IMG/VR virus record: IMGVR_UViG_3300010391_000120
Coordinates: 5,065 to 69,064 of that record
Strand: one strand, 5' to 3'
Source: a virus
Length of the DNA stretch: 64,000 bases
Of this stretch, positions 41,548 through 64,000 are shown piece after piece (position 1 is the stretch's first letter; every line of letters begins with the position of its first letter). Position numbers and translations under genes: made by a program. The notes under the pieces were generated by a model, which saw only the letters and a list, made by a program, of their open reading frames with translations, was not told the DNA's origin and made no database searches.

Positions 41548-41555
41548 TATTTATT

Positions 41556-42208: not shown

Positions 42209-42210
42209 AT

Positions 42211-42328: not shown

Positions 42329-42331
42329 AAT

Positions 42332-48453: not shown

Positions 48454-48460
48454 TAATAAG

Positions 48461-48898: not shown

Positions 48899-49107
48899 AT
48901 CTGATTACGTTAAACGTATAGTTAAATTGGCACAACAATCTGGAGCTAGTGATGTTCCAACAGGAAGATTGCTTGTTTGTTATAAAGAATGTGGATGGCA
49001 CTATACCGGAACAAATCTTTGTGGTTGGCCATTTGGAAAATGTGATGAACGTATAAAACGGAAGTGAAAAAATAACTCCTAGATACAAGATAAGGAGCGA
49101 AAACAAA

Positions 49108-50640: not shown

Positions 50641-51559
50641 ATTTATCTTCATTAGATAATTTATTATGAATTTCTATTAACTTATCAAAGTCAATCCAAC
50701 ATTCTCCTCGTTTTTTCAAGTTGACAAAAGCAGGCAATATTTGAAGGTTGCAAATAGATCCTATAATTCTGGGGTCAATTTTTTTCTTGAATCCCTCGCT
50801 TATAGAATATACATGATCTAAATGATAATTTTTTGATCTTGAATATAATTTACACAAATCTTTCTTATATTTGGTAAATGACCTACTGGTATAATTTACC
50901 ACTTTGCGATAATAATTTTCATATTCATTTAATAATTCATTAGTCATTTTTCTACCTGTAGAAATAAGAAATTGCTCAAATTCCTGTGTCTTGCTATAGT
51001 TATCTACTCCATGTTCTTCTATCATTTTTTTCTTATATTTTTTCTTAAATTCGTCAGTTTGATAATAATAAGGCACACCATATTTTTCTAAATAATATTC
51101 TTTTCTTTTGAAGTCTGCTAACTGATACTTGCTAATTCCTAAGAGTGGATCTATATTAAACCAATGATTTCTTAATTTCTCAATGACAGATGGCACTTTA
51201 GAAATATTATTTACCCCATACATTTTCATTAAAGTATTTTTGCTTTTCAATAATATTTCTTGAGATTGCATTGGCCAATCTACCCCAAAGTGTTTCTTAC
51301 AGGTCATTCTTTTTTTCTCTTTAATTTCCGGAATTTGAGAAACATTTTCTACACCATATTTTTTCTTTAATGTAGAAATGATTTTTGATTTTTCTAATTC
51401 TCCATGCAAATTGGATATATGACCATATTTTTTGAGATTGGTTTGTTGTTTAGACTTTAATAAACAATTTTTAGCACCACAAGTTTTTAAGTAAATATTT
51501 TTGCAATTTTTTACCAATTTTTTCTCTCTTATATTACATATTGGACAAATGTTATTCAT
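50627..51559 (-). CDS. Putative homing endonuclease (KKYGV repeats + HNH-like C-terminus)
   Basis: Repeats of T..KKYGV.N.SQ; YHLDHVYSI..GF...IGS..NLQ.LP...N..K. Confidence 0.75.
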   Translation of the reverse strand: MNNICPICNIREKKLVKNCKNIYLKTCGAKNCLLKSKQQTNLKKYGHISNLHGELEKSKIISTLKKKYGVENVSQIPEIKEKKRMTCKKHFGVDWPMQSQEILLKSKNTLMKMYGVNNISKVPSVIEKLRNHWFNIDPLLGISKYQLADFKRKEYYLEKYGVPYYYQTDEFKKKYKKKMIEEHGVDNYSKTQEFEQFLISTGRKMTNELLNEYENYYRKVVNYTSRSFTKYKKDLCKLYSRSKNYHLDHVYSISEGFKKKIDPRIIGSICNLQILPAFVNLKKRGECWIDFDKLIEIHNKLSNEDKFILH

Positions 51560-52115
51560 ACTTCATTCTATATGACTATAAATATAGTTCAATTTCTCAA
51601 AATCGTGAAAAATATAGGGACTTGACATATAGAAAAACTCTGATATACTGGAGATATAAATGGCAGTCAAACTGGCAAAACGAAAACCGAAGTGGCTACA
51701 GAAAATCTCTGCGGATAATGTTGCTTCTGCTAATCGCTCCAGACAAGCCAGATTTGAGCTTGTTTTAGCTAAATTGGAGCTTGAACAACTCATTGAAGGG
51801 CTTAATGACAAATATAACACTAATTTTGATATGAGTGATATATTTTTAATAACTCAAGAAGAAGAGCAACAAGCCATTGATACGGTAGAGGGCGACGAAG
51901 ATGATGATGAATAAGATAAATCCGGCCGCAGTTCATACGCCCAAAGGTTATCGGCGTTTGAAAAGGGGGGAACTTTTGCGTGAAGGAGATTTATTCTTAC
52001 ATTGTATTGATTTGACATGGCAGCCTGTTTGGTCCGTATTCACAATAAACAATTTTTCAAATTGTATTCGCCCAATTAGGCTCTTGGCCGAGCATATTTC
52101 TTATAATGATTTTTT

Positions 52116-52913
52116 ATGAAAATTGGATTGGAATTTGAAGGCGTTATTAGAAGTTATACCACTGGCGAAATTACCCGCTGGTCAAAGATTCCTGATGAGG
52201 CAAGAATGGCTATCAAAAAGGCAATGTTTATTCGCAGGAAAAAAATTGAACCTTGCGATAGATATGACGCTCTTGCTGAAGTTAGAACGCCTCCCATTGA
52301 AAATCCGACAGCAGAGAAGTTGATAACTGCTTTATTTACGGAAATGGAATCCGCCACCAATGCTTTTGTATCCAATGGTTATTTCATTCAGTGGTTTGAG
52401 CAGCCTATTCCTAAAGAGCTTCACGATGAAATACGGCATGACAAAGTTTTGGCAGACCCAGATGGCAAGAAAGATAAGATAACTTATACCATTAAAGATG
52501 GTATAATGACTGAATATAGGAGCGAAGGTAATTTGTTTAGAGGCGGCGGACTTCATATAAATGTTAGTTCAATACCTCAAGTGTTTGCTGCTAGTGTAGC
52601 AGTCGGCTTACATGGTGGCTTACGGCATCTTCGTGAAAAAGGAAAGTTTCAATCTCATTATAGAAACAATCTGCTTTTCAGAATTAAACAGGGGGATGAA
52701 TGTAGTTATTATGGAAAGTTCTTAGAACGCAGCGGCGAGCATGTTGTAGAATATATGTCGCATGGCTTTAATGTTCCAAGTTTGAAAGGTTGGCAGAAAG
52801 AATTGGATCATAGTGTAAATAAAGGAAATGATTTTCCGCCTAAGTTTGAATGGGCTTGGTTTATTGCTAGACATTTACAAAGATATTTTGAATCGGTGAA
52901 GAACTTCAAATAA
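52116..52913 (+). CDS. COOH-NH2 ligase (glutamine synthetase/amidoligase fold), divergent
   Basis: KIGLEFE, LAEVRT.P, RGGGLHIN, FRIK...VEY motifs. Confidence 0.65.
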   Translation: MKIGLEFEGVIRSYTTGEITRWSKIPDEARMAIKKAMFIRRKKIEPCDRYDALAEVRTPPIENPTAEKLITALFTEMESATNAFVSNGYFIQWFEQPIPKELHDEIRHDKVLADPDGKKDKITYTIKDGIMTEYRSEGNLFRGGGLHINVSSIPQVFAASVAVGLHGGLRHLREKGKFQSHYRNNLLFRIKQGDECSYYGKFLERSGEHVVEYMSHGFNVPSLKGWQKELDHSVNKGNDFPPKFEWAWFIARHLQRYFESVKNFK

Positions 52914-53618
52914 TATGATAAACAGACCAACATTATCCTTTTACATAGAATACAAATTAGTAATTAAATCTACAGGGGAAGTTTTGTCGAATCATCAAGT
53001 GCGTGCGAACGGTATAAAAGAATTGAAAAAAGCAATGCGGTATTGGGAAGGAGTAGTCAAAAAGTTTCATGGTAATAAAACCAAAGTTGTTTGGGGCGAT
53101 ACATTTCAAGTATCTAAAATCAAATTATGAAAAATTACCGAATAGGTTTAGATGTAGCTGGTAATATTCAGTTTGTATTAGATATACTAGCTAAAGACTT
53201 CTTTGAAGCAGCAGACGAATGGGCAAGAATTACAGGTCACGAAGGCGAATTATTTGATAGGAAAAAATATACATATTTTGGATGGCATATATTGGTAGTG
53301 AAAGAGCCATCTTTGGAAAGAAAGGATAAATCTAATCCATTTCAATATTGATATGATTACAAGACCACGGTAAAAAATAAATGGTTGTTTGGAACCTGAC
53401 TGGCAAGCGGAAGAAAATCGTTATCCTATTAGATGTATCATTACTAATTTGTTTGCCACTTCGTTAAATGGAATAAACTCTTGTCCATTCTGCGGTAGTG
53501 AGTTTTCTACTCCGCCTCTAAGTAGAGAAGAAGCCGCAATGTCTACCAGACATGGAAGGGGATGCGTTTGGGTAGAAGCATTAAGGCTTTTTGGCGTAGA
53601 AGTTAATCAAAAATAAGA

Positions 53619-54299
53619 GTGAATACTTTTTTGCCATATCCTCCAGACCAAGACGGCTCCAGTGGTTTCTGGTCTTTTCGTAATTCTGCCCATGTATTAG
53701 ATAATAAACGGCTTAACAAGCAGACGGTAGAGGCTTTACAGATTTTGGACGTTCTATGTGGTAGGGTAGCCGCTTGGCACCATCATCCCGCAGTGTTACA
53801 ATGGAAAGGCCATGAATGGGCACTTTTGGATTATCTTACTGATATGTGCCTTGAGTGCATAGATGATAGGCATTTCCAAAACTCAATTTATCGTAAAACA
53901 AATGCACTTCGTGAAGAAATCCCGGTGGAATCTTCTATTGATATGCCTCCTTGGATGGGAGATAAGGATTTTCATGCGAGTCACCGATCTCGCTTATTAT
54001 TCAAAGGCCGTCAGGATGTTGCTTTAGCAGCCCTCAAAGAGTATCATCAATTCAAAAGTTTTGCTGATGTTAAGTTTTGGCTCGTATCTGATTTTTGTTC
54101 ACTGGTTATTAGTGATTCATTTGTCAAAACTAACGTATTTACTAACAAAGATTTAGAAAAGATTGAAATGTGGCTTGGGTTAAAGGACGTGAACATCGCT
54201 CCTAACTACTATGCCCAATTCAAATGGGCAGAAAAGGATAATATTCCTTATGTTTGGCCTGTAACCATAGCGAAACTACGAGAAAAAATTGAAGTATGA
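53619..54299 (+). CDS. Pyrimidine-dimer DNA glycosylase-like protein (MSMEG_6728/DenV superfamily)
   Basis: TFLPYP, SA.VLD.KRL.KQ.VEA.QIL, HPAV.QW.G, PPW.G...FHASHRS.LL.K, PYVWP. Confidence 0.85.
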   Translation: MNTFLPYPPDQDGSSGFWSFRNSAHVLDNKRLNKQTVEALQILDVLCGRVAAWHHHPAVLQWKGHEWALLDYLTDMCLECIDDRHFQNSIYRKTNALREEIPVESSIDMPPWMGDKDFHASHRSRLLFKGRQDVALAALKEYHQFKSFADVKFWLVSDFCSLVISDSFVKTNVFTNKDLEKIEMWLGLKDVNIAPNYYAQFKWAEKDNIPYVWPVTIAKLREKIEV

Positions 54300-54596
54300 G
54301 ATATAAATGTTATTGGGAAAAATGGCACGAAGGAAAATATAATAGGACCCGGAAAATGGTTACATCTGCTCTCACAGCGTGCGGATATAAAGAAATTCCT
54401 ACTTGTAATGGCGGTGACGATGATAGAATTATTATGGATACAAAAAGAAAAGAGTGGGCGTATTTTGAATATGGATTTACGCCATTTGCTTGTGATGAGG
54501 AAAACTATCCTACTGATAGAAACTTAACATACTGGTATAGGCATTCACGGTAAAAGGGACTTGACAGAAAAAAAATCTCTGATAGACTTGAGATAT

Positions 54597-54866
54597 ATGG
54601 GTAAACAAAAGAAACAGATTGGTGTCTTTGGAAAAGCGACTGTATTCAAAGCACCTGTGAAAGTAGGGCAAGAAAATGTTACCATAACATTTCCGAAAAC
54701 TATTATGGATTACATTCATGCTGAAGATGTTATTTTCTGGTCTCCTATAAACGGCGTAATCCAAATCTGTGGCGAGCAGCCACATATGGTAATACCGATG
54801 CTTTCAGTAAATGAAGATGCTTTTGTGCCACAAGATGATGCTCTTCCTGTGGTTGAAAGAGAATAA
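54597..54866 (+). CDS. Small protein with AbrB/SpoVT-like pattern, first gene of the ligase operon
   Basis: VKVG....TITFPK.I......D.I.W....G.I.I pattern; promoter TTGACA(54561)-16-TAGACT just upstream. Confidence 0.4.
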   Translation: MGKQKKQIGVFGKATVFKAPVKVGQENVTITFPKTIMDYIHAEDVIFWSPINGVIQICGEQPHMVIPMLSVNEDAFVPQDDALPVVERE

Positions 54867-54897
54867 CTAATAACAATAAACCAAATATAGTCTCCCT

Positions 54898-55791
54898 ATG
54901 GCTGGCGAATTAGATTTTACGATGGGTGCTGACCCTGAGTTTTTATGTGTGGATCGTCGCACAATAATTGACAGTGGCGCTTACACAAACACCAACAACG
55001 AATTAGGCAGCGATAATAATGGTGTGTTGTTTGAAGTGAGGCCCAGCCCTTCTACTGACCCAGTAGATATAGTCAATAACATGCACGACATTTTCGCTCG
55101 TTGGTTGACCGCCAACAAAGATTTTACCAAATTGAAGTGGTTAGCAGGTTCTCATTATGCTGACCAAAACATAGGCGGACATATTCATTTTGGTATCAAA
55201 CCAGCAAAAATTCCAACCGCTACAATCGCTAATGTGCTTGATAACTATATCGGATCTATTACGATGCTGCTTGAGTCCCGTAACCAAGGATTGAGGCGGC
55301 GTCAAGGTAACTATGGCCGAATGGGGGATACTCGGCCGCAGACTTGGGGATTTGAGTATCGCACTTGTGCTAGCTGGATTACTTCTCCATATGTTTCAGC
55401 CGGCGTCCTTTGTTTGGCAAAAACGGTGGTTTGGGAATTTGCTAACAATACTCGTTTCACTCCACGGCAGTTTATGACCGCTGAGGATTTTTCCACGATG
55501 AATACTGATAAGGTTAGAGCGGAGTTTCCGGAATTGTGGAAAGATATTACTTCAATGAAGTTATATCAGCAATACAAGGTCTATATTGACCTGCTCTATT
55601 TCTTAATCAAAAAGAATTACACTTGGTTTCCTAATTCAAGCATGAAAGAAGCTTGGGGTTTGGTTGACTTAACCAAAGCATATGAAGATAAAATCAAGTT
55701 AAATGTAATTTGGGAACGCTTTAAGCAAGAGATTGACACTAATGGTTGTGCCATAACCGTTCCTGTGGAACGGCCACATCGTTATCGGTAA
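54898..55791 (+). CDS. Phage phiEco32-like COOH-NH2 ligase (type 2)
   Basis: TMGADPEF, FEVRPSP, IGGHIHFG, RR..NYG..GD.R.Q.WGFEYRT..SW. Confidence 0.9.
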   Translation: MAGELDFTMGADPEFLCVDRRTIIDSGAYTNTNNELGSDNNGVLFEVRPSPSTDPVDIVNNMHDIFARWLTANKDFTKLKWLAGSHYADQNIGGHIHFGIKPAKIPTATIANVLDNYIGSITMLLESRNQGLRRRQGNYGRMGDTRPQTWGFEYRTCASWITSPYVSAGVLCLAKTVVWEFANNTRFTPRQFMTAEDFSTMNTDKVRAEFPELWKDITSMKLYQQYKVYIDLLYFLIKKNYTWFPNSSMKEAWGLVDLTKAYEDKIKLNVIWERFKQEIDTNGCAITVPVERPHRYR

Positions 55792-55993
55792 AATATATGA
55801 AAATGAAAAAATGGAAAGTTTCTTATACATCCTGGCGAGAAACTTGGTCTGGCCATGATCAAAATGACGGCGACTGCGAAGAAATTGTTAAAGCTAAAAC
55901 CCGAAAAGGTGCTATTAGTAAAGTAGAGAAAAAAAACTTTAGTGGAAATTGGTCCCATAGTATTTGGGGAACTAACTGTAATGCTGAGGAAAT

Positions 55994-56473
55994 ATGATTG
56001 AATTTAGCGAAAAAGATTTTCAATTAGCAAAGATTCGCCGGGAATCTAAGTTATTCAACCTTCAAACCGGCCAGCCATTTCGGGTGTGTGGATTGAGGAC
56101 GAAGGGTAATTCACTAATTCATATATCATATAACTATGATACAGTGGGCGAGAATTTTGATGAACATATGGCCATGCTTGTTGATTTCTGTAAGAATAAT
56201 AACATTGAACTTAAATGGGAATCCGGTGCCGGCACCCCGAAAGTCTGTATCGGATTACGCCGTGACTTGAGGGACCATATTCTTCTTTGTTCGGCAATTC
56301 TTCAAACTATTGTTTATTGCCTTGAAGGGCAACTGAACATAAATGGCAAAGAGAGGATAAATGGTATTCCTGCTTTTCCTAACTCCCGAGGCGTTGTAAA
56401 GAAGCAAAGGACTGAGTTGCCTGTGGTTGAGCGTGAAGATTATGACGATGCTGATGGCGACGACAATCGTTAA
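55994..56473 (+). CDS. Hypothetical protein with acidic C-terminus containing LPVVERE
   Basis: 159-aa ORF between the ligase and the GATase. Confidence 0.6.
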   Translation: MIEFSEKDFQLAKIRRESKLFNLQTGQPFRVCGLRTKGNSLIHISYNYDTVGENFDEHMAMLVDFCKNNNIELKWESGAGTPKVCIGLRRDLRDHILLCSAILQTIVYCLEGQLNINGKERINGIPAFPNSRGVVKKQRTELPVVEREDYDDADGDDNR

Positions 56474-56512
56474 TTTAATTATGACTAACAAAAATATGAA
56501 AGGAATGCTATA

Positions 56513-57325
56513 ATGTGCCGGATGGCTGCCTTCCCCCCAAACTTCCCCCGTGCTGAAGCACTCGAAATATTGAAAAATTTCGAGAATAACAACACGGATG
56601 GAACTGGAGCTGCTTGGATTGAAGGGAAAAAGTTTGTGGTTGAAAGATACCCAAAAAGTTTGACCAAAGTGATTCGCAAGCATCGTTTTCTTCACCATAT
56701 GCCCCATCCGGGTTGGACCATAGCTCACCTAAGAGCGGCTTCAAAAGGTGATGTTTCTTTGGTAAATACTCACCCGTTTGTAGCTGGAAAGTTTGCAGTT
56801 TGCCATAATGGAACTTTTAGCGAATTTAAGATTGTCAAACTTGCTTTGGGAAATAGGGTTAAGTTTGAGGGAGAAACTGATACCGAAGCGGCTGCCCATC
56901 TTATCTCTGTGGCCGGACCTAAACGGTTTTCAGAAACAATAGACTTTTCTGGTGTCTTTCTCGCCCTAAATATTCGCGGCGATTTATGGGCCATTAAGAC
57001 AAGTGGCGACTTGGAAATCCAAGCATTACCAAAGGATAAGGTGGTTCTTTGCTCAAAGTTTAATCCCAGTGAATATCCTGGGTCAGACGAAGCACAAGTC
57101 GGTTGGTATCATATGGACAATGAAGGAAGATATATCAAACACAAGAAAGTGCGTGATAACGCTGTCACCTATCATCGTCCTACTTCTGCTTGTGGAACTT
57201 TCGGACCTGGAAGTAATCCGCCTTGGGCTCCTTCTAATGTTAGTTGTCATACCATTCGCGATCCTGATGGTAGAGCTCTTGCCCATCGTGGTATTTGGCC
57301 TTATAACACTTATGAGGGGGACTAA
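56513..57325 (+). CDS. Class II (Ntn) glutamine amidotransferase
   Basis: N-terminal MCRM, N.DGTG, AHLRAAS.G, NTHPF, HNGT, GETDTE. Confidence 0.92.
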   Translation: MCRMAAFPPNFPRAEALEILKNFENNNTDGTGAAWIEGKKFVVERYPKSLTKVIRKHRFLHHMPHPGWTIAHLRAASKGDVSLVNTHPFVAGKFAVCHNGTFSEFKIVKLALGNRVKFEGETDTEAAAHLISVAGPKRFSETIDFSGVFLALNIRGDLWAIKTSGDLEIQALPKDKVVLCSKFNPSEYPGSDEAQVGWYHMDNEGRYIKHKKVRDNAVTYHRPTSACGTFGPGSNPPWAPSNVSCHTIRDPDGRALAHRGIWPYNTYEGD

Positions 57326-57562
57326 GTTATGAATCATCCTAAAAAAGTCGTTGTTTATCATAAATTAAGCCGGTGCTTTTGTCGTAATGCTAACACTGGC
57401 CCTGAAAATAATAAAGATTTATTTTGTAAATATCCAGAAGATGCCTATGATTTCGGCTCTCTTAATTCTGCTAGAAATTGGGCAGATGCCTCTGGATTTA
57501 CCAGTCTGGTAGTTATGATTGTGGCCTCTTGACAAATAAAAACTCTCTGATATACTCTCAAT

Positions 57563-57889
57563 ATGAATCAAGATCAACTAATTCGGTTCCTGATGGACAA
57601 CATTGATGCTGAGGCATTAGCAGAAGCTAATCGTCAAGGATCAACAATCATGTATTTCGCTGGTGTCGCTCAGCGTTTTCCAAATACAAATCCAGCGGCA
57701 AATCCACCCAGGCGAGTTGCTCAAGTTGCTCCTGCGAATCCTGTGGCTCGCATGAATGTTCGGCAACCTGCTCCTCAAAACGAAGAAATCAATGAAGCCC
57801 TTCCTGCTCCGGCACTGGCTCGTGCGCCAGGTCGACGCAATCCTCGGCCAGGTAACGAGAACGATACCGTTCGCGTGGGCCGCCTGTAA
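57563..57889 (+). CDS. Lys-free, Pro/Ala/Arg/Asn-rich disordered protein
   Basis: 108 aa with no K or C; leaderless start 6 nt after the -10 of promoter 57529-57556. Confidence 0.7.
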   Translation: MNQDQLIRFLMDNIDAEALAEANRQGSTIMYFAGVAQRFPNTNPAANPPRRVAQVAPANPVARMNVRQPAPQNEEINEALPAPALARAPGRRNPRPGNENDTVRVGRL

Positions 57890-57926
57890 ACCAATAATAA
57901 GAACAATTAGAAAAAACACAAAACAT

Positions 57927-58697
57927 ATGGACTACCTATTATACCATGCCAACAGCTCAGTCACGGGACGAGAGCTTGTTCGACAACTCGGAATCAGCGG
58001 CGGTGCAGACAGCCCTGATCGTCGGCCCCAAAGATTAGTGCGATGGGGGAATCGTTCGGAAATCCGCTTCAACGCAGTTGGCGGAGTGCTGAACAAGAAA
58101 TCAGCTCTTAATGATGCCTCGAACAAAGGCCGTTCATTGGAGTTATTGACCGCAGCGGGAATCAATGTTCCCCCTGCTGCTACTCGGTTTGACGGCGAGT
58201 TGCTTGTTGGACGCACTGAAACTCATGTTGGCGGGGAAGGGTTTTTCCTCGTCACCAGCCAGCGTGATTTTGAGTTGGCTCGGGATCACTGCCATTGCAC
58301 CCACTTTATGAAATACATTCCTACTCAGCGGGAGTATCGGGTCCATGTGTTTCAAGGGCGAGTTATCGGCTCGGGTGAGAAGCTGATGGGCGAGAACGCC
58401 ACCAGCCTTCATATTCGCAATGTGGGCACGGGCTGGACATTCCGCTATAACCAAGCGGAGCGCATCCCCAATGACATTCAGAATATTGCCACCGAGGCAA
58501 TGCAGGCTCTTGGCCTGGACTTCGGTGCCGTAGATGTTCTGAAATCGGTAAACAATAACTTTTACGTGTTGGAAGTCAACACGGCGCCAGGGTTAGTCGC
58601 AGTTGAAGGTAGGGGGCGGGGCCGGGAAGTCACGGATGGCCCTATGTTCCAGTCTTATCTGGATGCCTTCCGCAATTGGTTGGAAACTGCCCGTTAA
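57927..58697 (+). CDS. ATP-grasp ligase (RimK/phiEco32-like)
   Basis: VRWG, NK...L..L...G..VP, H.GG.G, EYRVHVF, ALGLDFGAVD, LEVNTAPGL; probable start ATG 57927. Confidence 0.9.
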   Translation: MDYLLYHANSSVTGRELVRQLGISGGADSPDRRPQRLVRWGNRSEIRFNAVGGVLNKKSALNDASNKGRSLELLTAAGINVPPAATRFDGELLVGRTETHVGGEGFFLVTSQRDFELARDHCHCTHFMKYIPTQREYRVHVFQGRVIGSGEKLMGENATSLHIRNVGTGWTFRYNQAERIPNDIQNIATEAMQALGLDFGAVDVLKSVNNNFYVLEVNTAPGLVAVEGRGRGREVTDGPMFQSYLDAFRNWLETAR

Positions 58698-58715
58698 TCG
58701 GGCACTTGGTTCAAA

Positions 58716-58743
58716 GATTGTCCGGCCGAAAGGCCGGACAATC
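58716..58743 (+). terminator. Perfect 12-bp GAAA-tetraloop hairpin after the ATP-grasp gene
   Basis: GATTGTCCGGCC-GAAA-GGCCGGACAATC followed by a pyrimidine tract. Confidence 0.7.
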
Positions 58744-59476
58744 CTCTCTTTATATGATTACTCCAATTTCAAGACCGATAAAGCCTGCTCTTCCTGAAAT
58801 ACAATACATTCCATTTGTGTCTGTAACGGAATATGGCAATCATGGTGGCAGGGTCAAGGAGAGTCATTACAAGAAATATGGGCATTATTGCCAAGTAGTG
58901 ATGGTTTCTCGTAGCGATATTGAAGGTTTCAATAAAACTGGATTTAGAATGTTTGGTATTATGCCAGGAACTTTAGGTAGGCCCTGGACCGGTGACCCTG
59001 AAGCAAGGCGGAAAGATTTGCGGAAGTTTGCTGGTTATCCTCAATTCAATTTTGGAATGTATTACGATTTGGATTATCTGCTTTTCATGGATGATGTTAT
59101 TGAATATAACCATCACCAGCGAAAGTTTGAGGACATTCGTTCAGCAAGAGATTTCGTAAAGCAACACAAACATATATGAAATACACAATTCCAGTAGTCA
59201 CCCGCACTCAAGATAATGGTGATGGCGGTTATACTACCAATGCCTATAATACGGAAGATGAACTAATTGCTGACCATCCTAAATCAATGGAATGGGATAG
59301 TAAGGCAGAGAAAGAAGTGCCCGTGGCATTGTCTCAGGAAAAGCGGGACGCCATTTTGAATGAGGATGATCCCTATGAAAACGGCTATATTGGTCGGGAT
59401 GAAATCGTTATTGAAATCGTGGATGGTGTTGCGAAACTTTCTAAACCGCTTAGTTTCCACGCCGGCCAATAAGTCA

Positions 59477-60208
59477 ATGATTAGAATATTAACAATAGGA
59501 AGCGAAAGAAAGTTTGTTGACCGTCTTGGTTATACGACTTCTTGCTATTTAACTAATAGTGTTGAATCATATAATCGGGATGTAGTCATTCGATTTGGAA
59601 ATAGCCAAGCGGCATACAACCATGATCGTTTACCGACTGACTTTAGAAATGTCTTAAATCCAGCAAAAGCTATTTCTTCTAACATTGACAAAATAAATAC
59701 CAGAAGGAAATTGTCAGCAGTTGTTTCTACACCCAAAACATTCTACAAATATACTCCTAATCGTGGTGTGTTTGTTATTCGCCATCGTGGTCACGCTTCC
59801 GGTAGTGGTTTTCAAGTGAGAGAATCGAATGGAGTATCTATTCGCCTTCGTGAAGGTGGCGAATATGCCAGTGAATATGTAAGAGGCGATGAATACCGAG
59901 TCTGGTTTGTTGGTAATAGGACAATGAGGGCATTAAGATACTCTGCTACTGGTATTACTTCACGCTTTCCATGTAGAAGTAAGTGGTCTTATGAATATTG
60001 CGATAATGTGCCTACCGATTTACATAATCAAACTCTATTAGGAGCAAGGACTTTAGGACTTGATTTTGGTGCTGCTGATGTTATACGGAGTAATGGAAGA
60101 TGGTATTTTTTGGAATATGATACAGCACCAAGTATTGATACGGCAACGCTACGAAGGTTTTTCAAGAATAATTTTGATAGGCTAATTCGTGAAAGATTTA
60201 GGATTTAG
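59477..60208 (+). CDS. Second ATP-grasp ligase
   Basis: VIRFGN, DK, H.SGSG, EYRVW, LGLDFGAADV, LEYDTAPSI; probable start ATG 59477. Confidence 0.85.
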   Translation: MIRILTIGSERKFVDRLGYTTSCYLTNSVESYNRDVVIRFGNSQAAYNHDRLPTDFRNVLNPAKAISSNIDKINTRRKLSAVVSTPKTFYKYTPNRGVFVIRHRGHASGSGFQVRESNGVSIRLREGGEYASEYVRGDEYRVWFVGNRTMRALRYSATGITSRFPCRSKWSYEYCDNVPTDLHNQTLLGARTLGLDFGAADVIRSNGRWYFLEYDTAPSIDTATLRRFFKNNFDRLIRERFRI

Positions 60209-60223
60209 AGAGGCCAAGGAGCC

Positions 60224-60274
60224 ACAAGAGGCCGCTGACTGCTATCGGGAGACTATCAGTTGGTGGCCTCTTGT
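60224..60274 (+). terminator. Long hairpin after the second ATP-grasp gene
   Basis: ACAAGAGGCCGCTGACTG / CAGTTGGTGGCCTCTTGT 18-bp stem with G-U pairs. Confidence 0.6.
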
Positions 60275-61239
60275 CATTTTATGAAAAAAGAAGTAATTAT
60301 TAAACTTTTAGAAAATGTCTTAACAATAGATGGCAGAGGCCGGCCCGGCAAAGCTCGATTATTACTTTCATTGATTGAAGAATCACCTACACTTGTTCTT
60401 TTAACCGCCATTAAAGAAATAGGTGAAAGAAAGTGGTTCTAATGATTAAAGTTTACGAAAAATATATTTCTGGTAAATGTGAACGGTTTATTGAATGGGA
60501 AGAAGATTTAATTCACCCCATAATGCGGTGCCATTTAATGAATATTTCAGATGGAGCACAATTCCATTGGCACTCATGGGCAAAGTTTTCGTTTAGACTA
60601 CCTGTCTCTGGTTCCCTCGAAATCCTACAAGGTAAAGCAAAAGCAGTTTATGAATTATATACTACAAAACAATGGTCTTGTGCTTGTGGTAAATGTAGAG
60701 GATTGAAGTTTAAGGATATAATTTGTGATAAGTGTTTTGAACCTACCAAGCTTGGTTATCTTACTAAAGAAGTAAGTCCCTGGTAAATGATTGTTGGGAT
60801 TTAATTGCTGTCGTCCCATAAATACTTGACATAATAGAAATCTCTGATATACTTCTACCAGTGAAAGCAATAGAGGCATTATGGGCTATGACAGAAGGTG
60901 AGAATGTTTCGTTGTATTGGCCAGATTGTGAAATATTTCAATTAGTTGGACTCAACGCTATTGGACTATTTTACCCTGATTATTCAGAGCTTGAGGCCAG
61001 TAGAATGACAACCACTGACTTTTTGAAATTTTACCCTGATGCTGAATTTGTAATATACGAAGAAAAATGATGTGATTTGGAATTTCTTTAATAATTTAGA
61101 TAATCGGTTCTATGAGGAAACTTTTATTCGCCATTATTTTGGAAATAAAAGTAAAAATCAATTAGGAGATTTATTCCATGTTATTATGTTACGGATGGCG
61201 GATATAATTAACAGTCTGAAAAACGCTTTAAGATTTAAC

Positions 61240-61310
61240 AAATAATTTTCTCGCAACAACCGGATCGCAAGGCGGGTAGTGTGTCCAAAACATTATCCGT
61301 CCTTTTTTTT
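61240..61310 (+). ncRNA. Structured 3' element, copy 1
   Basis: CGCAACAACCGGATCGCAAG + GCGGGTAGTG-TGTCCAAAA-CATTATCCGT hairpin + T-run. Confidence 0.6.
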
Positions 61311-61441
61311 GTTTGTGGCAAAATATCCAACACTTCTTTTTTAAGGGTATTGACATATAAAAAATCTCTGATAGAATTGACCAGTAATCGAAAGAACGCT
61401 TACATTATGTATTATACGAAACAAAAAGATAGAATCAATAA

Positions 61442-62029
61442 ATGAAATCACTAATAGTAGTTGGAGCCTTAATTGGCCTACTGGTCCTAACAGCAGTTAT
61501 CTTCGGAACGATGGCTGTTTCTTTCCACAACAAAGAAGTCCGACTCCGTAATCTTATTACGGCAAAGCAAACCGACAACAAAAGCGAAATGGATGCAATG
61601 TGGAAAATCATTGACCAAAACGCTCAAGTTACCGTGCTACAGAAAAATGCCCTCATGGACATTTTTAACGGTTATGCTGAAGCACGAACTGGCAACGATA
61701 GTTCTGCTTCTCTGATGAAATGGATTACAGAATCCGTCCCCAATGTTGATCAAAGCACTTATACAAAGTTAATGAATACAATCACTGCTCAACGTGAGGG
61801 GTTTAAGTTTCGCCAGAAAGAGATTCTTGACTTCAAACGAGAGCATGACAATTTGATTACTACATTCCCCAATGTAATCTTTGCCACAATCCTTGGGCGC
61901 CATAAGATTGATGTTGTAATCGTCACGAGCACCCGCACCGAAAACGCCTTCAAAACAGGCAAGGACGACGACACAACTCTACCAGGCATGAAGCAAAACT
62001 CTGTGCCGGCTGAAACTACTGTCAAATAA
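61442..62029 (+). CDS. Membrane-anchored helical protein (LemA-like phage family)
   Basis: N-terminal TM helix; WITESVPNVD...Y.KLM.TI...REGF...Q....D. Confidence 0.6.
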   Translation: MKSLIVVGALIGLLVLTAVIFGTMAVSFHNKEVRLRNLITAKQTDNKSEMDAMWKIIDQNAQVTVLQKNALMDIFNGYAEARTGNDSSASLMKWITESVPNVDQSTYTKLMNTITAQREGFKFRQKEILDFKREHDNLITTFPNVIFATILGRHKIDVVIVTSTRTENAFKTGKDDDTTLPGMKQNSVPAETTVK

Positions 62030-62092
62030 CTTCTACGCAATAACCGGGTCACAAAGCGGCGGGAGCGTCCAAAACTCTCGCCGCCCTTCTTA
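62024..62092 (+). ncRNA. Structured 3' element, copy 2
   Basis: CGCAATAACCGGGTCACAAA + GCGGCGGGAG-CGTCCAAAA-CTCTCGCCGC hairpin. Confidence 0.6.
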
Positions 62093-62127
62093 AAAAATAA
62101 ATAATAATAACATAGAAAGTCTCCTTT

Positions 62128-63468
62128 ATGTGGTTCTTTTGGGTATTCTCTCTGGTCCCTATCCTCGCTGGCATTGCCCTTCTTTACTTTGATAAACGTA
62201 TCACTTGGAAAGAAATGCTCGGTGGTAGTGCCGCTTCTCTTGCTTTAGCCGGATTATTCCAATTATTGGCGTCAATCGGAATGACGCATGATATTGAAAC
62301 TTGGTCTGGCCTAATTACACAAACAACTCATTATGGCCAATGGGTTGAAGAATATGAGCAGATGCACACTCGCCAAGTCGCTACTGGTGTAGATAAAGAT
62401 GGGAATACTACATATACAACTAAAATCTATTATACAACCGAGCACGCTACCCATTATGAGCATTGGGGTGTTGATAGAAACTTTGGAGCAATAGCGGATG
62501 ATCCAGAAGTAGATCAATCATTCTATAATCAAGTCAAATATAATTTTGGTAATACTATTGATGAAACCGGAGAACAAAGTTGTAGTCACGGCGGCCACTA
62601 TGACGGCGGAGATAGAACTTACTATGTTAGCCATAACAACACCGGCTACAAATACCCCGTCACCATAACAAAATCATTTGAAAATAGGGTGAAGGCTGCA
62701 CCTACTTTGTTTTCATTTGTCAAAGTTCCCACAAACATATCAGTATATCCTTGGCCAGAAAACCCCGATTGGAATAATTCAGGAAGGGTAATAGGCACAG
62801 CACAAAACTTCATTCATACAAGAAATTGGGATATTCTCAATTCAGATTTAGGGCCACGAAAAAAAGTAAATCTAATCATTGTAGGATTTCCAAGCGGATA
62901 TTCAATGGATATTGCTAAATATCAAGAAGCTAAGTGGATTGGTGGTAAGAAGAATGATTTAGTTATTTGCTTTGCTGGTGGTTCTCAAACTGAACCTGCT
63001 GAGTGGACTTGTGTTTTCGGATGGACAGAGAAAACTTTAGTTAAGTTAAATCTACAAGATATTTTCACCAAAAATGCAATCAATGATGATATTATTCCGA
63101 AAGTAGAGAGCGAAGTATTGGGGAATTATGAGAAGAAGAATTGGCATAAGTTTGACTATATCACCATTGAACCGCCTACTTGGTCATATTGGGTTTATTT
63201 GATTGTGATGATTCTTGTTCAAGGCGGATTATATTTGTGGTTCCACTTCAACGAATTTGATAATGACTCTTTCAATAAGCAAGTTGATTACAAAGGTGCT
63301 GAAGAAGAAGTTAAGAATAAACTTTATCGTAAATTGAATGGGGTTAAAGCATTCTTTATCAAACCAAAGCCGGCTCTTTCATCTTCACCCTGTCTCCCCG
63401 GACCATGCCGAAAATTACCCCCATCCTATCATCCTCAAAAGAGAAGTGGCAAAAGAAACTTTCGATAA
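62128..63468 (+). CDS. Multi-pass membrane protein (phage family usually paired with the LemA-like gene)
   Basis: Two N-terminal TM helices, large soluble domain with LGP.KKVN.I and W.GGKKND, C-terminal TM. Confidence 0.65.
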   Translation: MWFFWVFSLVPILAGIALLYFDKRITWKEMLGGSAASLALAGLFQLLASIGMTHDIETWSGLITQTTHYGQWVEEYEQMHTRQVATGVDKDGNTTYTTKIYYTTEHATHYEHWGVDRNFGAIADDPEVDQSFYNQVKYNFGNTIDETGEQSCSHGGHYDGGDRTYYVSHNNTGYKYPVTITKSFENRVKAAPTLFSFVKVPTNISVYPWPENPDWNNSGRVIGTAQNFIHTRNWDILNSDLGPRKKVNLIIVGFPSGYSMDIAKYQEAKWIGGKKNDLVICFAGGSQTEPAEWTCVFGWTEKTLVKLNLQDIFTKNAINDDIIPKVESEVLGNYEKKNWHKFDYITIEPPTWSYWVYLIVMILVQGGLYLWFHFNEFDNDSFNKQVDYKGAEEEVKNKLYRKLNGVKAFFIKPKPALSSSPCLPGPCRKLPPSYHPQKRSGKRNFR

Positions 63469-63518
63469 GACTATTGACACAATAGAAAACTCTGATAAAA
63501 TCTGGAGAAATAAGTGAT

Positions 63519-64000
63519 ATGACAGAAATACCTGTAGCGGAAACTCTGAGGCAGAAGTTAAACCCCTTGCCTTATGCGGCTAATTTGAATATGGGCTGTG
63601 ATCCGGAGTTTTTCTTTACCAGAAAAGGTAAAGTTATTGGTTCAGAAAAAGTTTTGACAAAGGGGGAACACAAAGCGGATACAATATGGGGCGGCAAGTT
63701 TATCGTGGATGGTGTCCAAGCAGAATTAAACCCCACACCTTCGACCTGCCGAGCGGGGGTTGGTAATGCTATTCGCCTTTGCTTTCAGGATCTTCACAAT
63801 AAGATTTTGAAAAACCAAGCAGATCTTTCCGCCGACTTCTCGCAATGTATTGAAGTTGACCAGGCTGAAATGGATTCGCTGAGTGAGAAATTCAAAGTTT
63901 TTGGCTGTGCCCCAAGCACCAACATTTATAATGAAGGCAAATGTAAGACTAGCGTAATTACCGTTGACCCGAAGAAGTATCTCGGCCGCTCTGCTGGTGG
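63519..64000 (+). CDS. phiEco32-like COOH-NH2 ligase (type 2), truncated by the window end
   Basis: Manual translation: MGCDPEFF, DGVQAELNP, FGCAPS.N.Y, GRSAG; promoter TTGACA(63474)-16-TAAAAT. Confidence 0.88.
   Translation, partial: MTEIPVAETLRQKLNPLPYAANLNMGCDPEFFFTRKGKVIGSEKVLTKGEHKADTIWGGKFIVDGVQAELNPTPSTCRAGVGNAIRLCFQDLHNKILKNQADLSADFSQCIEVDQAEMDSLSEKFKVFGCAPSTNIYNEGKCKTSVITVDPKKYLGRSAG

What the first reader, a model, noticed from the sequence alone, without database searches (positions are those of the whole stretch)
52116..64000. Expanded amide-ligase cluster with Lys-depleted components: candidate phage protein-conjugation system
Seen: three COOH-NH2 ligases (52116, 54898, 63519-), a class II GATase (56513) and two ATP-grasp enzymes (57927, 59477). 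The ATP-grasp proteins contain only 6 Lys in 256 aa and 8 in 243 aa by hand count and are Arg-rich, whereas typical proteins here are very Lys-rich. The gene directly upstream of the first is Lys-free. Established: ligase + GATase + ATP-grasp neighbourhoods occur in phiEco32-like phages with no product defined, to my knowledge; this ligase fold includes the Pup ligase PafA; lysine deserts mark components of conjugation pathways. Inference: these enzymes attach amino acids or peptides to protein amines (host targets or cell envelope), and K-to-R drift avoids self-modification.
Basis: partly seen in the sequence, partly recalled or inferred. Interest (0 to 1): 0.85.

Follow-up and report, generated by a model that had tools for sequence, protein, structure and literature searches.

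The report
Phage amide-ligase cluster with lysine-free partner
A giant-phage gene cluster of amide-bond-forming enzymes carries an inserted two-gene unit, a small disordered protein that never contains lysine plus its own ligase, which probably marks a peptide- or protein-directed ligation system whose product is still unknown.

Summary
The region encodes three glutamine-synthetase-fold carboxylate-amine ligases (52116, 54898, 63519, the last cut by the contig end), a stand-alone class-II amidotransferase (56513) and two paralogous RimK-like ATP-grasp ligases (57927, 59477). Their lysine counts are 6 of 256 and 8 of 243, as reported. The 108-aa protein upstream (57563) has no lysine.

It is an expanded phiEco32-type amidoligase cassette on a jumbo-phage fragment. 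Related jumbo phages share a five-gene core. In this lineage an autonomous unit (phage promoter, Lys-free protein, ATP-grasp 1, hairpin) sits between the amidotransferase and ATP-grasp 2.

After GC control, lysine depletion is strong for the Lys-free protein (0 K, 219 R in 16 homologs) and for ATP-grasp 2, whose Arg codons are mostly AGA/AGG. It is only marginal for the GC-rich ATP-grasp 1. It is absent from the ligases and amidotransferase, and from ATP-grasp 2 orthologs in phages that lack the insert.

I read the Lys-free protein as the macromolecular substrate of ATP-grasp 1. Protein conjugation remains unproven.

I looked up no notes from other genomes.

The parts
52116..52913 (+). Carboxylate-amine ligase of the glutamine-synthetase/GCS2 fold. 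It belongs to no Pfam family; 39 representatives were found in 1.84 billion proteins.
   Evidence: (invariant E6, E8, E55, E95, R142, H147, R183, E212). An ortholog lies in L024 (58% identity).
54597..54866 (+). Small conserved protein (89 aa) that opens the core cassette. It ends in LPVVERE. A promoter-like site lies at 54561-54588.
   Evidence: Orthologs sit directly upstream of the PF14395 ligase in L004, L006, L007-L009, L024 and L030. Promoter. Start codon checked. No Pfam hit.
54898..55791 (+). PF14395 phiEco32-like COOH-NH2 ligase type 2.
   Evidence: 1.4e-47. Orthologs at 32-72% identity in L004-L010, L024 and L031.
55994..56473 (+). Conserved 159-aa protein of unknown fold. It has a disordered C-terminal tail carrying ELPVVERED.
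   Evidence: Orthologs lie between the ligase and the amidotransferase in L004-L009, L024, L029-L031. The model has pLDDT 65.5, and residues 129-159 fall below 50. No fold match at E<=1e-3.
56513..57325 (+). Stand-alone class-II (Ntn, Cys-2) glutamine amidotransferase/amidohydrolase without a synthase domain.
   Evidence: (GATase_4 33.7 bits against 23; GATase_6 33.9 against 27). Orthologs at 47-76% identity.
57329..57532 (+). 67-aa ORF present only in the lineage that carries the insert.
   Evidence: Found in L024 (52% identity) and L026 (partial). No Pfam hit.
57529..57556 (+). Phage early-type promoter, TTGACA-N16-TATACT with an extended TG.
   Evidence: The same TTGACA...TCTCTGATATACT element precedes the Lys-free gene in L024, L026 and L027. 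Ten such sites occur in the window.
57563..57889 (+). Lys-free, Arg-rich protein predicted to be disordered. It has a conserved ~40-aa N-terminal segment, a hypervariable P/A/R/Q/N linker, and an invariant C-terminal D-x-V-x-V-x-x-[L/Y/F].
   Evidence: 16 proteins, 1,776 residues, 0 K, 219 R; Atlas model pLDDT 0.26.
57927..58697 (+). ATP-grasp ligase 1 (RimK-like). It is a GC-rich gene (GC 0.53, GC3 0.58) with 6 K and 24 R.
   Evidence: The start at MDYLLYH is fixed by homolog N-termini.
58716..58743 (+). 12-bp GC-rich hairpin with a GAAA loop that closes the inserted unit.
   Evidence: Hairpins with different but still pairing stems follow the gene in L024, L026 and L027.
58754..59179 (+). 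141-aa ORF of unknown function in the variable spacer between the two ATP-grasp genes.
   Evidence: Ortholog in L026 (67% identity), with a fragment in L028. No Pfam or PHROG hit. Start checked.
59176..59472 (+). 98-aa acidic protein (pI 4.4) ending in FHAGQ, abutting ATP-grasp 2.
   Evidence: Three orthologs (window, L027, L028) all end in F-H-[A/G]-G-Q. No further relatives were found.
59477..60208 (+). ATP-grasp ligase 2, the core-cassette paralog. It is AT-rich yet has 8 K and 31 R (pI 10.1).
   Evidence: (best solved relative is RimK 7qys, E 2.3e-4).
63519..63998 (+). Third carboxylate-amine ligase (phrog_3815), truncated by the contig end. A promoter-like site lies at 63474-63501.

Best explanation
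The region is a jumbo-phage version of the phiEco32-type amidoligase cassette. It has two layers.

Layer 1 is shown. It is a core shared with related jumbo phages:
- a small protein (54597)
- the PF14395 ligase
- an unknown 159-aa protein
- a stand-alone Ntn amidotransferase
- RimK-like ATP-grasp 2

Two further GS-fold ligases lie nearby (52116, 63519).

Layer 2 is also shown. It is an autonomous transcription unit inserted between the amidotransferase and ATP-grasp 2. The unit consists of a phage early promoter, a Lys-free disordered protein, ATP-grasp 1 and a hairpin.

The mechanism is inferred. The Lys-free protein is the macromolecular substrate, either scaffold or tag, of ATP-grasp 1. Like RimK or LysX acting on a protein C-terminus, the ligase would phosphorylate a carboxylate in the conserved D-x-V-x-V-x-x-[L/Y/F] end and join it to an amine. 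Lysine is purged from the flexible substrate and thinned from the two ATP-grasp enzymes that handle it, because nearby epsilon-amino groups would compete as nucleophiles for the acyl-phosphate. Such competition would cause self-cyclisation or auto-modification.

The acceptor is not determined. It could be an amino acid (C-terminal extension), a protein lysine (tagging) or an envelope amine. The GS-fold ligases and the amidotransferase would add or trim further amide-linked groups.
For: 1. Module anatomy.
- In 4 of 4 loci that hold DNA upstream of a close ATP-grasp 1 ortholog (window, L024, L026, L027), the Lys-free gene lies directly upstream. The same promoter precedes it and a covarying hairpin follows the ligase.
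- Jumbo-phage relatives L004-L010, L029, L030 and L031 have the amidotransferase followed directly by ATP-grasp 2, with no insert.

2. Lysine avoidance in the partner.
- 16 homologs at 45-74% identity have a linker full of indels, yet hold 0 K among 1,776 residues against 219 R.
- 26-37 of about 110 codons per gene are one step from a Lys codon.
- GC-controlled z-scores are -2.9 to -3.4.

3. Invariant C-terminus. D101, V103 and V105 are invariant, and the last residue is L, Y or F in 16 of 16.

4. The enzyme is RimK-like. RimK-type enzymes acting on protein C-termini is established knowledge that I recall, not something I tested.

5. ATP-grasp 2.
- It is Lys-poor only in the lineage that has the insert: K/(K+R) is 0.21-0.33 in the window, L024, L025, L026 and L027, against 0.63-0.69 in L004-L010 and L031.
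- It uses AGA/AGG for 17 of 31, 19 of 29 and 18 of 27 Arg codons in the window, L024 and L025.

6. ATP-grasp 1's close clade (19 proteins) has Arg where the next clade (18 proteins) has Lys at positions 15 and 36. It keeps K67, K152 and K206 in 19 of 19.

7. Complex prediction gave weak support.
- The score was 0.35, against 0.01 for the best of 3 controls.
- That mark was reached by 58 of 80 solved complexes and 2 of 110 mismatched pairs. At 0.60 or under, it was reached by only 7 of those 80 solved complexes and by both mismatches that passed.
- The runs agree in at least 18% of contacts, and the partner's pLDDT is at least 35.
Against: - There is no biochemical evidence of any kind.
- The co-occurrence of the insert with Lys-poor ATP-grasp 2 is a single evolutionary event (one clade).
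- After GC control, ATP-grasp 1's deficit is only z -1.6 to -1.9, and 5-7% of background ORFs are lower.
- A model based on the gene's own codon-position composition gives P(no Lys) of 0.04-0.085 per Lys-free gene, so one gene alone is not decisive.
- The complex score is weak, and no interface was returned.
- Across the wider ATP-grasp family, K/(K+R) mostly sits at the locus background. Only the window lineage, L017/L049, phage Paul and L062 fall in the lowest tenth. TC6's enzyme is Lys-rich at 0.72. Lys-poverty is therefore not a general requirement of this chemistry.
- The C-terminus does not end in Glu, unlike RimK's and LysX's substrates (recalled).
- In the window's ATP-grasp 2, the Asn of the E-x-N motif is Asp.
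Confidence: 0.4

Rival explanations
1. The cassette makes or modifies a small molecule or a cell-envelope component, for example an amidated or peptide-decorated wall precursor that blocks superinfection. This is what was suggested for phiEco32. On this reading the lysine bias has no link to the chemistry. ATP-grasp 1 and its partner are GC-rich imports, and ATP-grasp 2 simply drifted.
For: Two papers cite Iyer et al. 2009 for a cell-wall or superinfection role, or a secondary-metabolite role, of phage amidoligase plus GATase. I saw only passages (PMC10580990; PMC11706807). GS-fold ligases, Ntn amidotransferases and RimK-family enzymes commonly act on small molecules (established knowledge, recalled). 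GC explains about half of ATP-grasp 1's deficit. Core-cassette orthologs in other jumbo phages show no lysine bias.
Against: ATP-grasp 2's Arg excess is encoded largely by AT-rich AGA/AGG in a gene with GC3 of 0.24-0.40, against the mutational direction. The Lys-free family shows 0 K against 219 R despite a fast-evolving linker. ATP-grasp 1 has dS of 1.0-2.3 between relatives yet keeps GC3 at 0.56-0.70, so it is not a fresh unameliorated import. The unit also uses the phage's own promoter type. None of the enzymes was screened for export signals or membrane segments.
Confidence: 0.3
2. The enzymes conjugate amino acids, peptides or a protein tag to lysine amines of host or phage proteins, and lysine loss protects the machinery from self-modification.
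For: All of the lysine-avoidance data above apply. The ligase fold is shared with PafA and Dop (Z 8.6 to 4bjr_B; 9cku). The PafA ligase is known to self-pupylate (PMC4783102, abstract in the listing). Lysine deserts are reported in ubiquitin and Pup pathway components (PMC10665810 and PMC10169902, abstracts). A second small protein next to ATP-grasp 2 ends in [A/G]-G-Q in 3 of 3 orthologs.
Against: The PafA resemblance is at superfamily level only; no Pup-ligase family hit was found. The GS-fold ligases themselves are not Lys-poor. The Lys-free protein ends in R-L, N-Y and the like, not in G-G-Q or G-G-E. The review seen stresses that the link between lysine deserts and conjugation is still hypothetical in prokaryotes, with GC as the main confounder. 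No target is known.
Confidence: 0.15
3. The Lys-free protein is not a substrate. It is an Arg/Pro-rich effector or regulator, such as a binder of host machinery. It avoids lysine to escape a host lysine-directed modification or proteolysis, and the adjacent ligase acts elsewhere.
For: The protein is predicted to be disordered (partner pLDDT 36-38) and very basic (pI 11.0). It is driven by an early-type promoter. Lysine-poor phage and toxin proteins have been interpreted this way (PMC13696103, passages).
Against: This reading does not explain why ATP-grasp 2 loses lysine in the same lineage. It also does not explain the strict pairing with ATP-grasp 1 in one transcription unit or the invariant extreme C-terminus.
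Confidence: 0.1
4. The pair is a graspetide-like RiPP system. The small protein is a leader-plus-core precursor that the ATP-grasp enzyme cross-links through side chains.
For: The layout fits: a conserved N-terminal segment, a variable linker, a conserved C-terminal 'core', and an adjacent ATP-grasp enzyme.
Against: The family has no lysine, so no lactam can form. The Thr next to the invariant Asp is replaced by Ala or Arg in 8 of 16 members, so an ester partner is not conserved. The enzyme's best matches are RimK-type, not microviridin-type. No protease or exporter gene is adjacent.
Confidence: 0.05

Closest known systems
phiEco32-type phage amidoligase cassette (Kuravirus such as phage Paul, and Paundecimvirus PA11/TC6; predicted by Iyer et al. 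2009; not characterised experimentally as far as my searches show)
   Same: A PF14395 ligase, a further carboxylate-amine ligase, an Ntn amidotransferase and a RimK-like ATP-grasp lie on one strand, with small ORFs before the ATP-grasp. ATP-grasp 1 hits 313 phage records at 35% identity or less.
   Different: No PF12224 Amidoligase_2 member and no gamma-glutamyl cyclotransferase is present. The amidotransferase is 270 aa, against 562 aa in Paul. There are two ATP-grasp paralogs and three GS-fold ligases. The Lys-free protein has no counterpart: Paul's two small ORFs hold 6 and 7 Lys. The PF14395 protein has no tblastn match in 50,697 phage records at 1e-5.
RimK / LysX family ATP-grasp ligases acting on a protein C-terminus (ribosomal protein S6; LysW carrier)
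   Same: The closest solved relatives of ATP-grasp 2 are RimK structures (7qys E 2.3e-4, 7qyr, 5zct, 4iwx). ATP-grasp 1 passes the RimK Pfam cut-off. A small partner protein with an invariant C-terminal end is encoded next to the ligase.
   Different: The partner ends in a hydrophobic residue, not Glu. The strand Lys that RimK uses (V-I-K) is an invariant Arg in both phage families: R102 in 20 of 20 and R96 in 58 of 58. No activity has been shown.
Pup-PafA/Dop tagging
   Same: The logic is shared: a small disordered protein, an ATP-dependent carboxylate-amine ligase, and a possible amidohydrolase. The 52116 model aligns to PafA and Dop at superfamily level.
   Different: The Lys-free protein is not homologous to Pup and lacks a G-G-Q/E end. 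Its paired enzyme is an ATP-grasp, not a PafA-type ligase. No proteasome or Mpa genes were seen. The host-range context (a phage with 33% GC) is not actinobacterial.

Membership tests
PF14395 COOH-NH2_lig (phiEco32-like ligase type 2) | Pfam HMM score above the gathering cut-off (25 bits) | tested here: met
   54898-55791 scores 162.5 bits over profile positions 1-254 of 254. The genome search gives 162.8 bits.
PF14395 COOH-NH2_lig (phiEco32-like ligase type 2) | The same criterion applied to the third ligase, 63519-63998 | tested here: inconclusive
   No Pfam hit for the 160-aa fragment. It matches phrog_3815 at 1.9e-10 and aligns to the 54898 protein at E 1e-4. The gene is cut by the contig end.
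Glutamine-synthetase/GCS2 carboxylate-amine ligase superfamily (for 52116) | The shared fold | tested here: met
   The model has pLDDT 91.8. Foldseek gives 1tt4_A at E 7.4e-5. VIA-align gives Z 9.6 (2ojw_E, rmsd 3.9, 179 aligned) and Z 9.5 (1r8g_B, rmsd 4.3, 193 aligned), with 160 chains at Z>=8.
Glutamine-synthetase/GCS2 carboxylate-amine ligase superfamily (for 52116) | Sequence-profile membership in a named family (GCS2, Amidoligase_2, COOH-NH2_lig) | tested here: not met
   None of 35 family members has a hit at E<=0.001. The best are GCS2 at 0.06 and COOH-NH2_lig at 0.074, in one member each. A PDB profile search returned 0 matches at E<=10.
Class-II (Ntn) glutamine amidotransferase | N-terminal Cys nucleophile and a Pfam GATase_4 or GATase_6 score above the cut-off | tested here: met
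   The protein starts MCRMAAFPP. GATase_4 scores 33.7 against 23, and GATase_6 scores 33.9 against 27.
Class-II (Ntn) glutamine amidotransferase | A fused or adjacent synthase domain that receives the ammonia | tested here: not met
   The protein is 270 aa and only the GATase domain matched, at residues 25-140. I infer that it may act as an amidohydrolase.
ATP-grasp, RimK-like | Pfam RimK score above the cut-off (21 bits) | tested here: met
   ATP-grasp 1 scores 27.7 bits. ATP-grasp 2 has no Pfam hit, but is a paralog (E 4e-12) and its family profile hits RimK 7qys at E 2.3e-4.
ATP-grasp, RimK-like | Conserved nucleotide- and Mg-binding residues (strand Lys, E-x-R, D, E-x-N) | tested here: inconclusive
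   E136-x-R138, D203 and E216-x-N218 are conserved (E136 in at least 90% of 58, the rest invariant) in ATP-grasp 1's family. The strand Lys is Arg in both families. The window's ATP-grasp 2 has E-Y-D instead of E-x-N.
phiEco32-type amidoligase cassette | Co-linear PF14395 ligase, second ligase, Ntn amidotransferase and ATP-grasp | tested here: met
   Window genes lie at 54898, 52116/63519, 56513 and 57927/59477, all on the + strand. This compares with Paul and TC6.
phiEco32-type amidoligase cassette | An Amidoligase_2 (PF12224) member and a gamma-glutamyl cyclotransferase, as annotated in phage Paul | tested here: not met
   Neither hit appeared among the 20 window proteins scanned.
Pup-type tagging system | A small disordered modifier ending in G-G-Q or G-G-E | tested here: not met
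   The Lys-free protein is predicted to be disordered but ends in R-L, N-Y, G-Y and similar in 16 of 16 members. The neighbouring 98-aa protein ends in [A/G]-G-Q in 3 of 3, but its Atlas model suggests a fold (pLDDT 0.70).
Pup-type tagging system | A PafA/Dop-family ligase and a proteasome or Mpa partner | tested here: not met
   No Pup-ligase Pfam hit appeared in the proteins scanned. The similarity to PafA is at fold level only. The rest of the phage genome is not available, since the contig is about 20% complete.
Graspetide RiPP | A core peptide with conserved Thr/Ser or Lys donors paired with Asp/Glu | tested here: not met
   There is no Lys in 16 of 16 members, and the Thr after the invariant Asp is replaced in 8 of 16.
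Lysine desert (absolute criterion of 150 residues, as quoted in PMC13696103) | A continuous Lys-free stretch of at least 150 residues | tested here: not met
   The longest Lys-free runs are 61 aa in ATP-grasp 1 and 77 aa in ATP-grasp 2. The Lys-free protein is wholly Lys-free but only 108 aa. Criterion wording comes from the passage.

The most novel reading that the evidence does not exclude
The Lys-free disordered protein is a phage-encoded protein tag. Its logic is analogous to Pup or ubiquitin, but it is unrelated in sequence and uses an ATP-grasp enzyme rather than a PafA- or E1-type enzyme. ATP-grasp 1 would activate its conserved C-terminus and attach it to lysines of host or phage proteins early in infection. 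The tag carries no lysine so that it cannot be chained or cyclised, and the two ATP-grasp enzymes have shed surface lysines to avoid tagging themselves. The GS-fold ligases and the Ntn amidohydrolase would prime, extend or remove the tag.
Probability: 0.12. Interest if true: 0.9.

Novelty: new variant of a known kind. Interest (0 to 1): 0.6.

Why it matters
The phiEco32-type amidoligase cassette is widespread: ATP-grasp 1 alone matches 313 phage records. In the papers I could search it still has no defined product.

This lineage offers a handle that the classical cassettes lack. It has a dedicated small partner protein with a sharp sequence signature: no lysine in any of 16 homologs and an invariant C-terminal motif. 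A natural contrast also exists, because sister phages without the insert have a normal-lysine paralog.

If the partner is the ligase's substrate, the system becomes directly testable by intact-mass and blot assays. It could reveal either a carrier-protein-based biosynthesis or a new protein-tagging chemistry in phages.

It is also a clean prokaryotic case where lysine loss can be separated from GC bias, through AGA/AGG-encoded Arg in an AT-rich gene. The lysine-desert literature itself names GC bias as an open problem.

Tried and rejected
Searches that found nothing:
- Megablast of 52000-64000 against phages: no match.
- tblastn of the PF14395 protein against phages: no match.
- The search for related loci with ATP-grasp 1 alone in viral contigs: none confirmed.
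- The ATP-grasp 1 'middle clade' alignment A5 in viral contigs and in genome contigs: none. I therefore could not learn whether that normal-lysine clade lacks the Lys-free gene.
- Alignment A6 in prokaryote genomes: 46 loci, all at 35% identity or less over most of the protein (the higher figures are short segments), so no close cellular source.
- The 98-aa [A/G]-G-Q protein: no relatives in viral contigs or phages, and Atlas scores of 0.79 or less.
- Atlas for the Lys-free protein: no usable feature hit.
- Rfam on 51000-64000: 0 matches.
- The 159-aa core protein: model pLDDT 65.5 and no PDB fold match at E<=0.001. Its function stays unknown.
- Pfam on ten further ORFs: only a weak LemA hit below cut-off, DUF7487, and two weak zinc-motif hits (E about 0.05) for 53389, far below their cut-offs.

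Ideas rejected:
- Family-wide lysine depletion of this ATP-grasp family. Locus-background percentiles are mostly 0.2-0.9.
- A 313-aa form of ATP-grasp 1 starting at 57756. Homologs start at M-x-Y-[I/L]-L-Y-H, and the upstream frame overlaps the conserved Lys-free gene. P0080's 100-aa extension looks like the same kind of over-call.
- Recent unameliorated transfer as the sole cause of ATP-grasp 1's GC. Its dS is 1.0-2.3 with GC3 kept high.
- The codon-position composition test is partly circular and weak: P is 0.04-0.085 per gene.
- The PVVERE motif as a conserved feature of the core. Far-clade orthologs of 54597 and 55994 lack it, though ATP-grasp 2 tails there carry VPVVE-like strings.

Literature limits:
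- Iyer et al. 2009 was not held. What I say of it comes from two citing papers (passages) and from recall.
- Supplementary files were not consulted.
- The statement that no product is defined rests on searches.

Full report
**Context.** The window is the last 64 kb of a 69-kb viral contig that is estimated to be about 20% complete, so it is a fragment of a jumbo phage. The window end is the contig end. GC is 0.26-0.39 over most of the window and rises to 0.43-0.45 at 56-60 kb. All genes discussed here lie on the + strand.

**Checking the observation.** Pfam and PHROG scans gave these results:
- 54898-55791 is a PF14395 phiEco32-like COOH-NH2 ligase (162.5 bits).
- 56513-57325 is a class-II amidotransferase domain (GATase_4 and GATase_6 above cut-off). 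The protein begins M-C.
- 57927-58697 is RimK-like (27.7 bits; phrog_2599 at 3e-41).
- 59477-60208 matches phrog_2599 (8e-11).
- 63519-63998 matches phrog_3815 'COOH.NH2 ligase' (1.9e-10).
- The two ATP-grasp proteins are paralogs (26% identity, E 4e-12).
- The third ligase aligns to the first over the G-x-D-P-E-F start (E 1e-4).

The 52116 protein had no family hit. An exhaustive search found only 39 representatives, and none of 35 aligned members matches a ligase family at E<=0.001. Its AlphaFold model is confident (pLDDT 91.8). The model matches YbdK/GCS2, gamma-glutamylcysteine ligase, glutamine synthetases, Dop and PafA: Foldseek best E 7.4e-5 and VIA-align Z 9.6-8.4 with 160 chains at Z>=8. 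The invariant N-terminal E-x-E and the later E, H and R residues are those expected of this fold. 'Three COOH-NH2 ligases' is therefore right.

The hand counts are exact. The two ATP-grasp proteins have 6 K with 24 R and 8 K with 31 R, and the 108-aa ORF at 57563 has 0 K with 13 R. The window background is 9.9% Lys.

**Anatomy from relatives.** An alignment of ATP-grasp 2 homologs retrieved jumbo-phage contigs of 100-365 kb and metagenome contigs. In L004-L009, L029, L030 and L031 the order is small protein, PF14395 ligase, 159-aa protein, amidotransferase, ATP-grasp 2. The last two genes are adjacent. L010 lacks clear homologs of the two small proteins.

Only the closest relatives carry the extra genes between the amidotransferase and ATP-grasp 2. 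These are L024, L025, L026, L027 and L028, whose ATP-grasp 2 is 47-72% identical to the window's. The extra genes are the 67-aa ORF, the Lys-free gene and ATP-grasp 1, followed by a variable spacer.

The inserted unit is self-contained. A TTGACA...TCTCTGATATACT promoter lies 6-9 nt before the Lys-free ATG in the window, L024, L026 and L027. The window holds ten promoters of this type. A GC-rich hairpin follows ATP-grasp 1 in all four loci, with different but still pairing stems.

The wider kinship is with phiEco32-like and PA11/TC6-like podophages. Their cassettes read ligase, hypothetical, Amidoligase_2, amidotransferase, small ORFs, ATP-grasp.

**The Lys-free protein is a real gene.**
- Four loci and 16 database proteins share a conserved ~40-residue N-terminal segment, a hypervariable P/A/R/Q/N-rich linker with many indels, and an invariant end, D-x-V-x-V-x-x-[L/Y/F].
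- The 16 proteins hold 1,776 residues with no lysine and 219 arginines. L027's copy has one Lys, at position 2.
- The C-terminal motif occurs nowhere else in the loci I then held, L002-L069, or in the window.
- The protein is predicted to be disordered.
- The alternative long frame that would extend ATP-grasp 1 upstream is not supported. All homologs start at M-x-Y-[I/L]-L-Y-H.

**Is the lysine depletion explained by GC?** I regressed K/(K+R) on GC for 376 ORFs of at least 100 aa, taken from the window and 17 related loci. The slope was -1.22 and the residual sd 0.137. Residual z-scores were:

| Protein | Residual z |
|---|---|
| Lys-free protein | -2.9 to -3.4 |
| ATP-grasp 2 (window, L024, L025) | -3.1, -3.1, -3.0 |
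| ATP-grasp 2 (L026, L027) | -1.7, -2.0 |
| ATP-grasp 1 | -1.6 to -1.9 |
| PF14395 ligase | -0.6 |
| Amidotransferase | +0.1 |
| 52116 ligase | -0.3 |
| 159-aa protein | -0.9 |
| Third ligase fragment | +1.5 |
| ATP-grasp 2 in insert-free phages | -0.4 to +1.1 |

Codon usage separates the two ATP-grasp genes.
- ATP-grasp 1 encodes 22 of 24 Arg with CGN and has GC3 of 0.56-0.70 in every relative. GC accounts for roughly half of its deficit.
- ATP-grasp 2 has GC3 of 0.24-0.40 and encodes 17 of 31 (window), 19 of 29 (L024) and 18 of 27 (L025) Arg with AGA/AGG. Its Arg excess runs against the local AT pressure.

Within ATP-grasp 1, the close clade (19 proteins, K/(K+R) 0.14-0.30) has Arg where the next clade (18 proteins, 0.33-0.52) has Lys at positions 15 and 36. 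It retains K67, K152 and K206 throughout.

It is about half met for the third.

**Limits of the signal.**
- Neither enzyme has a lysine desert in the 150-residue sense. The longest Lys-free runs are 61 and 77 aa (criterion).
- Across the broader family, the ATP-grasp gene mostly sits at its locus background.
- Clear outliers beyond this lineage are L017/L049, phage Paul and L062. In those loci the neighbouring amidoligase-type ligase is also Lys-poor. In Paul, four cassette proteins are among the seven lowest of 40 ORFs of at least 150 aa, with 63 of 79 kb examined.
- TC6's ATP-grasp is Lys-rich.
- The coincidence of the insert with Lys-poor ATP-grasp 2 is one evolutionary event.

**Other features.**
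- dS between ATP-grasp 1 orthologs is 1.0-2.3, near saturation, yet GC3 stays high. The gene is therefore not simply a fresh import.
- Both ATP-grasp families carry an invariant Arg where RimK has its strand Lys.
- The window's ATP-grasp 2 has Asp in place of the E-x-N Asn.
- Complex prediction for ATP-grasp 1 with the Lys-free protein gave weak support:
  - The score was 0.35 against 0.01 for the best of 3 controls.
  - That mark was reached by 58 of 80 solved complexes and 2 of 110 mismatched pairs. At 0.60 or under, it was reached by only 7 of the 80 solved complexes and by both passing mismatches.
  - The runs agree in at least 18% of contacts, and the partner's pLDDT is at least 35.

**Mechanism.** The best-supported reading is that the Lys-free protein is the substrate of ATP-grasp 1. 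Its conserved C-terminal end would be the site of acyl-phosphate formation. Lysine would be selected against wherever a flexible epsilon-amine could reach that intermediate. This explains three things together:
- the absolute lysine avoidance in a fast-evolving disordered linker;
- the strict pairing of the two genes in one operon;
- the lysine loss in the paralogous ligase only where the partner exists.

It does not say what the acceptor is. A RimK-like C-terminal extension, a LysW-like carrier role and a Pup-like tag are all compatible. The earlier literature suggestion of a cell-wall or metabolite product for the core enzymes is not excluded.

**Comparison and novelty.** The enzymes are members of known families, and the cassette is a known kind that has been predicted but not characterised. 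Three things are new here: the inserted promoter-to-hairpin unit with a lysine-free partner family, the expansion to two ATP-grasp and three GS-fold ligases, and a lineage-specific lysine loss that can be separated from GC. I found no paper describing such a partner protein. Iyer et al. 2009 and all supplementary files could not be read, and they may bear on this claim.

**Earlier notes.** They concern the self-contained GC-rich cassette and the PVVERE tails. I tested the first and it holds. I tested the second partly. The motif is kept in L024 but not in far-clade orthologs, where similar strings occur in ATP-grasp 2 tails.

Noticed in passing
window 47533-50640: An NAD-salvage trio lies just upstream. 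It comprises a cytidylyltransferase-like protein fused to Nudix (47533-48453), a second Nudix-looking ORF judged by eye (48461-48898), and a nicotinamide phosphoribosyltransferase (49108-50640; phrog_448 at 4.8e-148). In L010 an NAMPT homolog lies 2 kb downstream of the cassette.
   Followed up: partly
window 40276-61377 (ten sites): A conserved phage promoter, TTGACA-N16-TATACT/TAGACT with an extended TG and often TCTCTGATATACT, recurs ten times on the + strand. Copies lie before 51660, 54597, 57563 and 60861, while the site before 63519 has TAAAAT as its second hexamer and is not one of the ten.
   Followed up: partly
window 54843-54866 and 56407-56430; tails of P0011-P0016; L005, L006: A short (L/V)PVVE(RE) string sits in disordered C-terminal tails of different cassette proteins in different lineages. 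In the window and L024 it is on the 54597 and 55994 proteins. In the insert-free clade it is on the tail of ATP-grasp 2. This may be a docking or substrate motif.
   Followed up: partly
window 59176-59472; L027:1484-1801; L028:466-741: A small acidic protein directly before ATP-grasp 2 ends in F-H-[A/G]-G-Q in all three copies found. This recalls the G-G-Q end of Pup (recalled). Only three orthologs are known.
   Followed up: partly
window 57927-58697 and orthologs in L024, L026, L027: ATP-grasp 1 keeps GC3 at 0.56-0.70 inside AT-rich neighbourhoods, although synonymous divergence between copies is near saturation (dS 1.0-2.3). The Lys-free gene shows lower pS (0.40-0.51) than its neighbours. 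Something other than recent transfer maintains the composition.
   Followed up: partly
alignments A1 and A6 (ATP-grasp families): The strand lysine that RimK uses (V-I-K) is an invariant arginine in both phage ATP-grasp families. This holds in 20 of 20 and 58 of 58 sequences, including Lys-rich members.
   Followed up: partly
L002 and L116 (Escherichia phage Paul): In this phiEco32-like phage the ATP-grasp (10 K, 32 R), Amidoligase_2 (9 K, 27 R) and two flanking hypothetical proteins are among the most Lys-poor of 40 large ORFs, at uniform GC. Two unrelated proteins (22172-23206 and CPT_Paul_076) are even poorer.
   Followed up: partly
window 53619-54299: A T4 DenV-like pyrimidine-dimer DNA glycosylase domain (PF03013, 1e-14) occupies the N-terminal 82 residues of a 226-aa protein that sits between the first and second ligase genes.
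   Followed up: no
window 50627-51559 (- strand): A lone minus-strand gene has very low GC (0.26) and 16.5% Lys. It matches DUF7487 (1.5e-22) and interrupts the + strand block. It may be a mobile insertion.
   Followed up: no
window 61442-63468: A LemA-like protein with a hydrophobic N-terminus (phrog_1383, annotated as virion structural) and a 446-aa protein with hydrophobic ends (phrog_2087) follow the cassette. They also follow it in L010 and L026.
   Followed up: no
window 40576-42415: A tRNA cluster was called by ARAGORN: Gly-TCC, Gly-GCC, Cys, His, Leu-TAA and Leu-CAA. Other first-reader notes describe odd tRNA-like elements here, which I did not examine.
   Followed up: no
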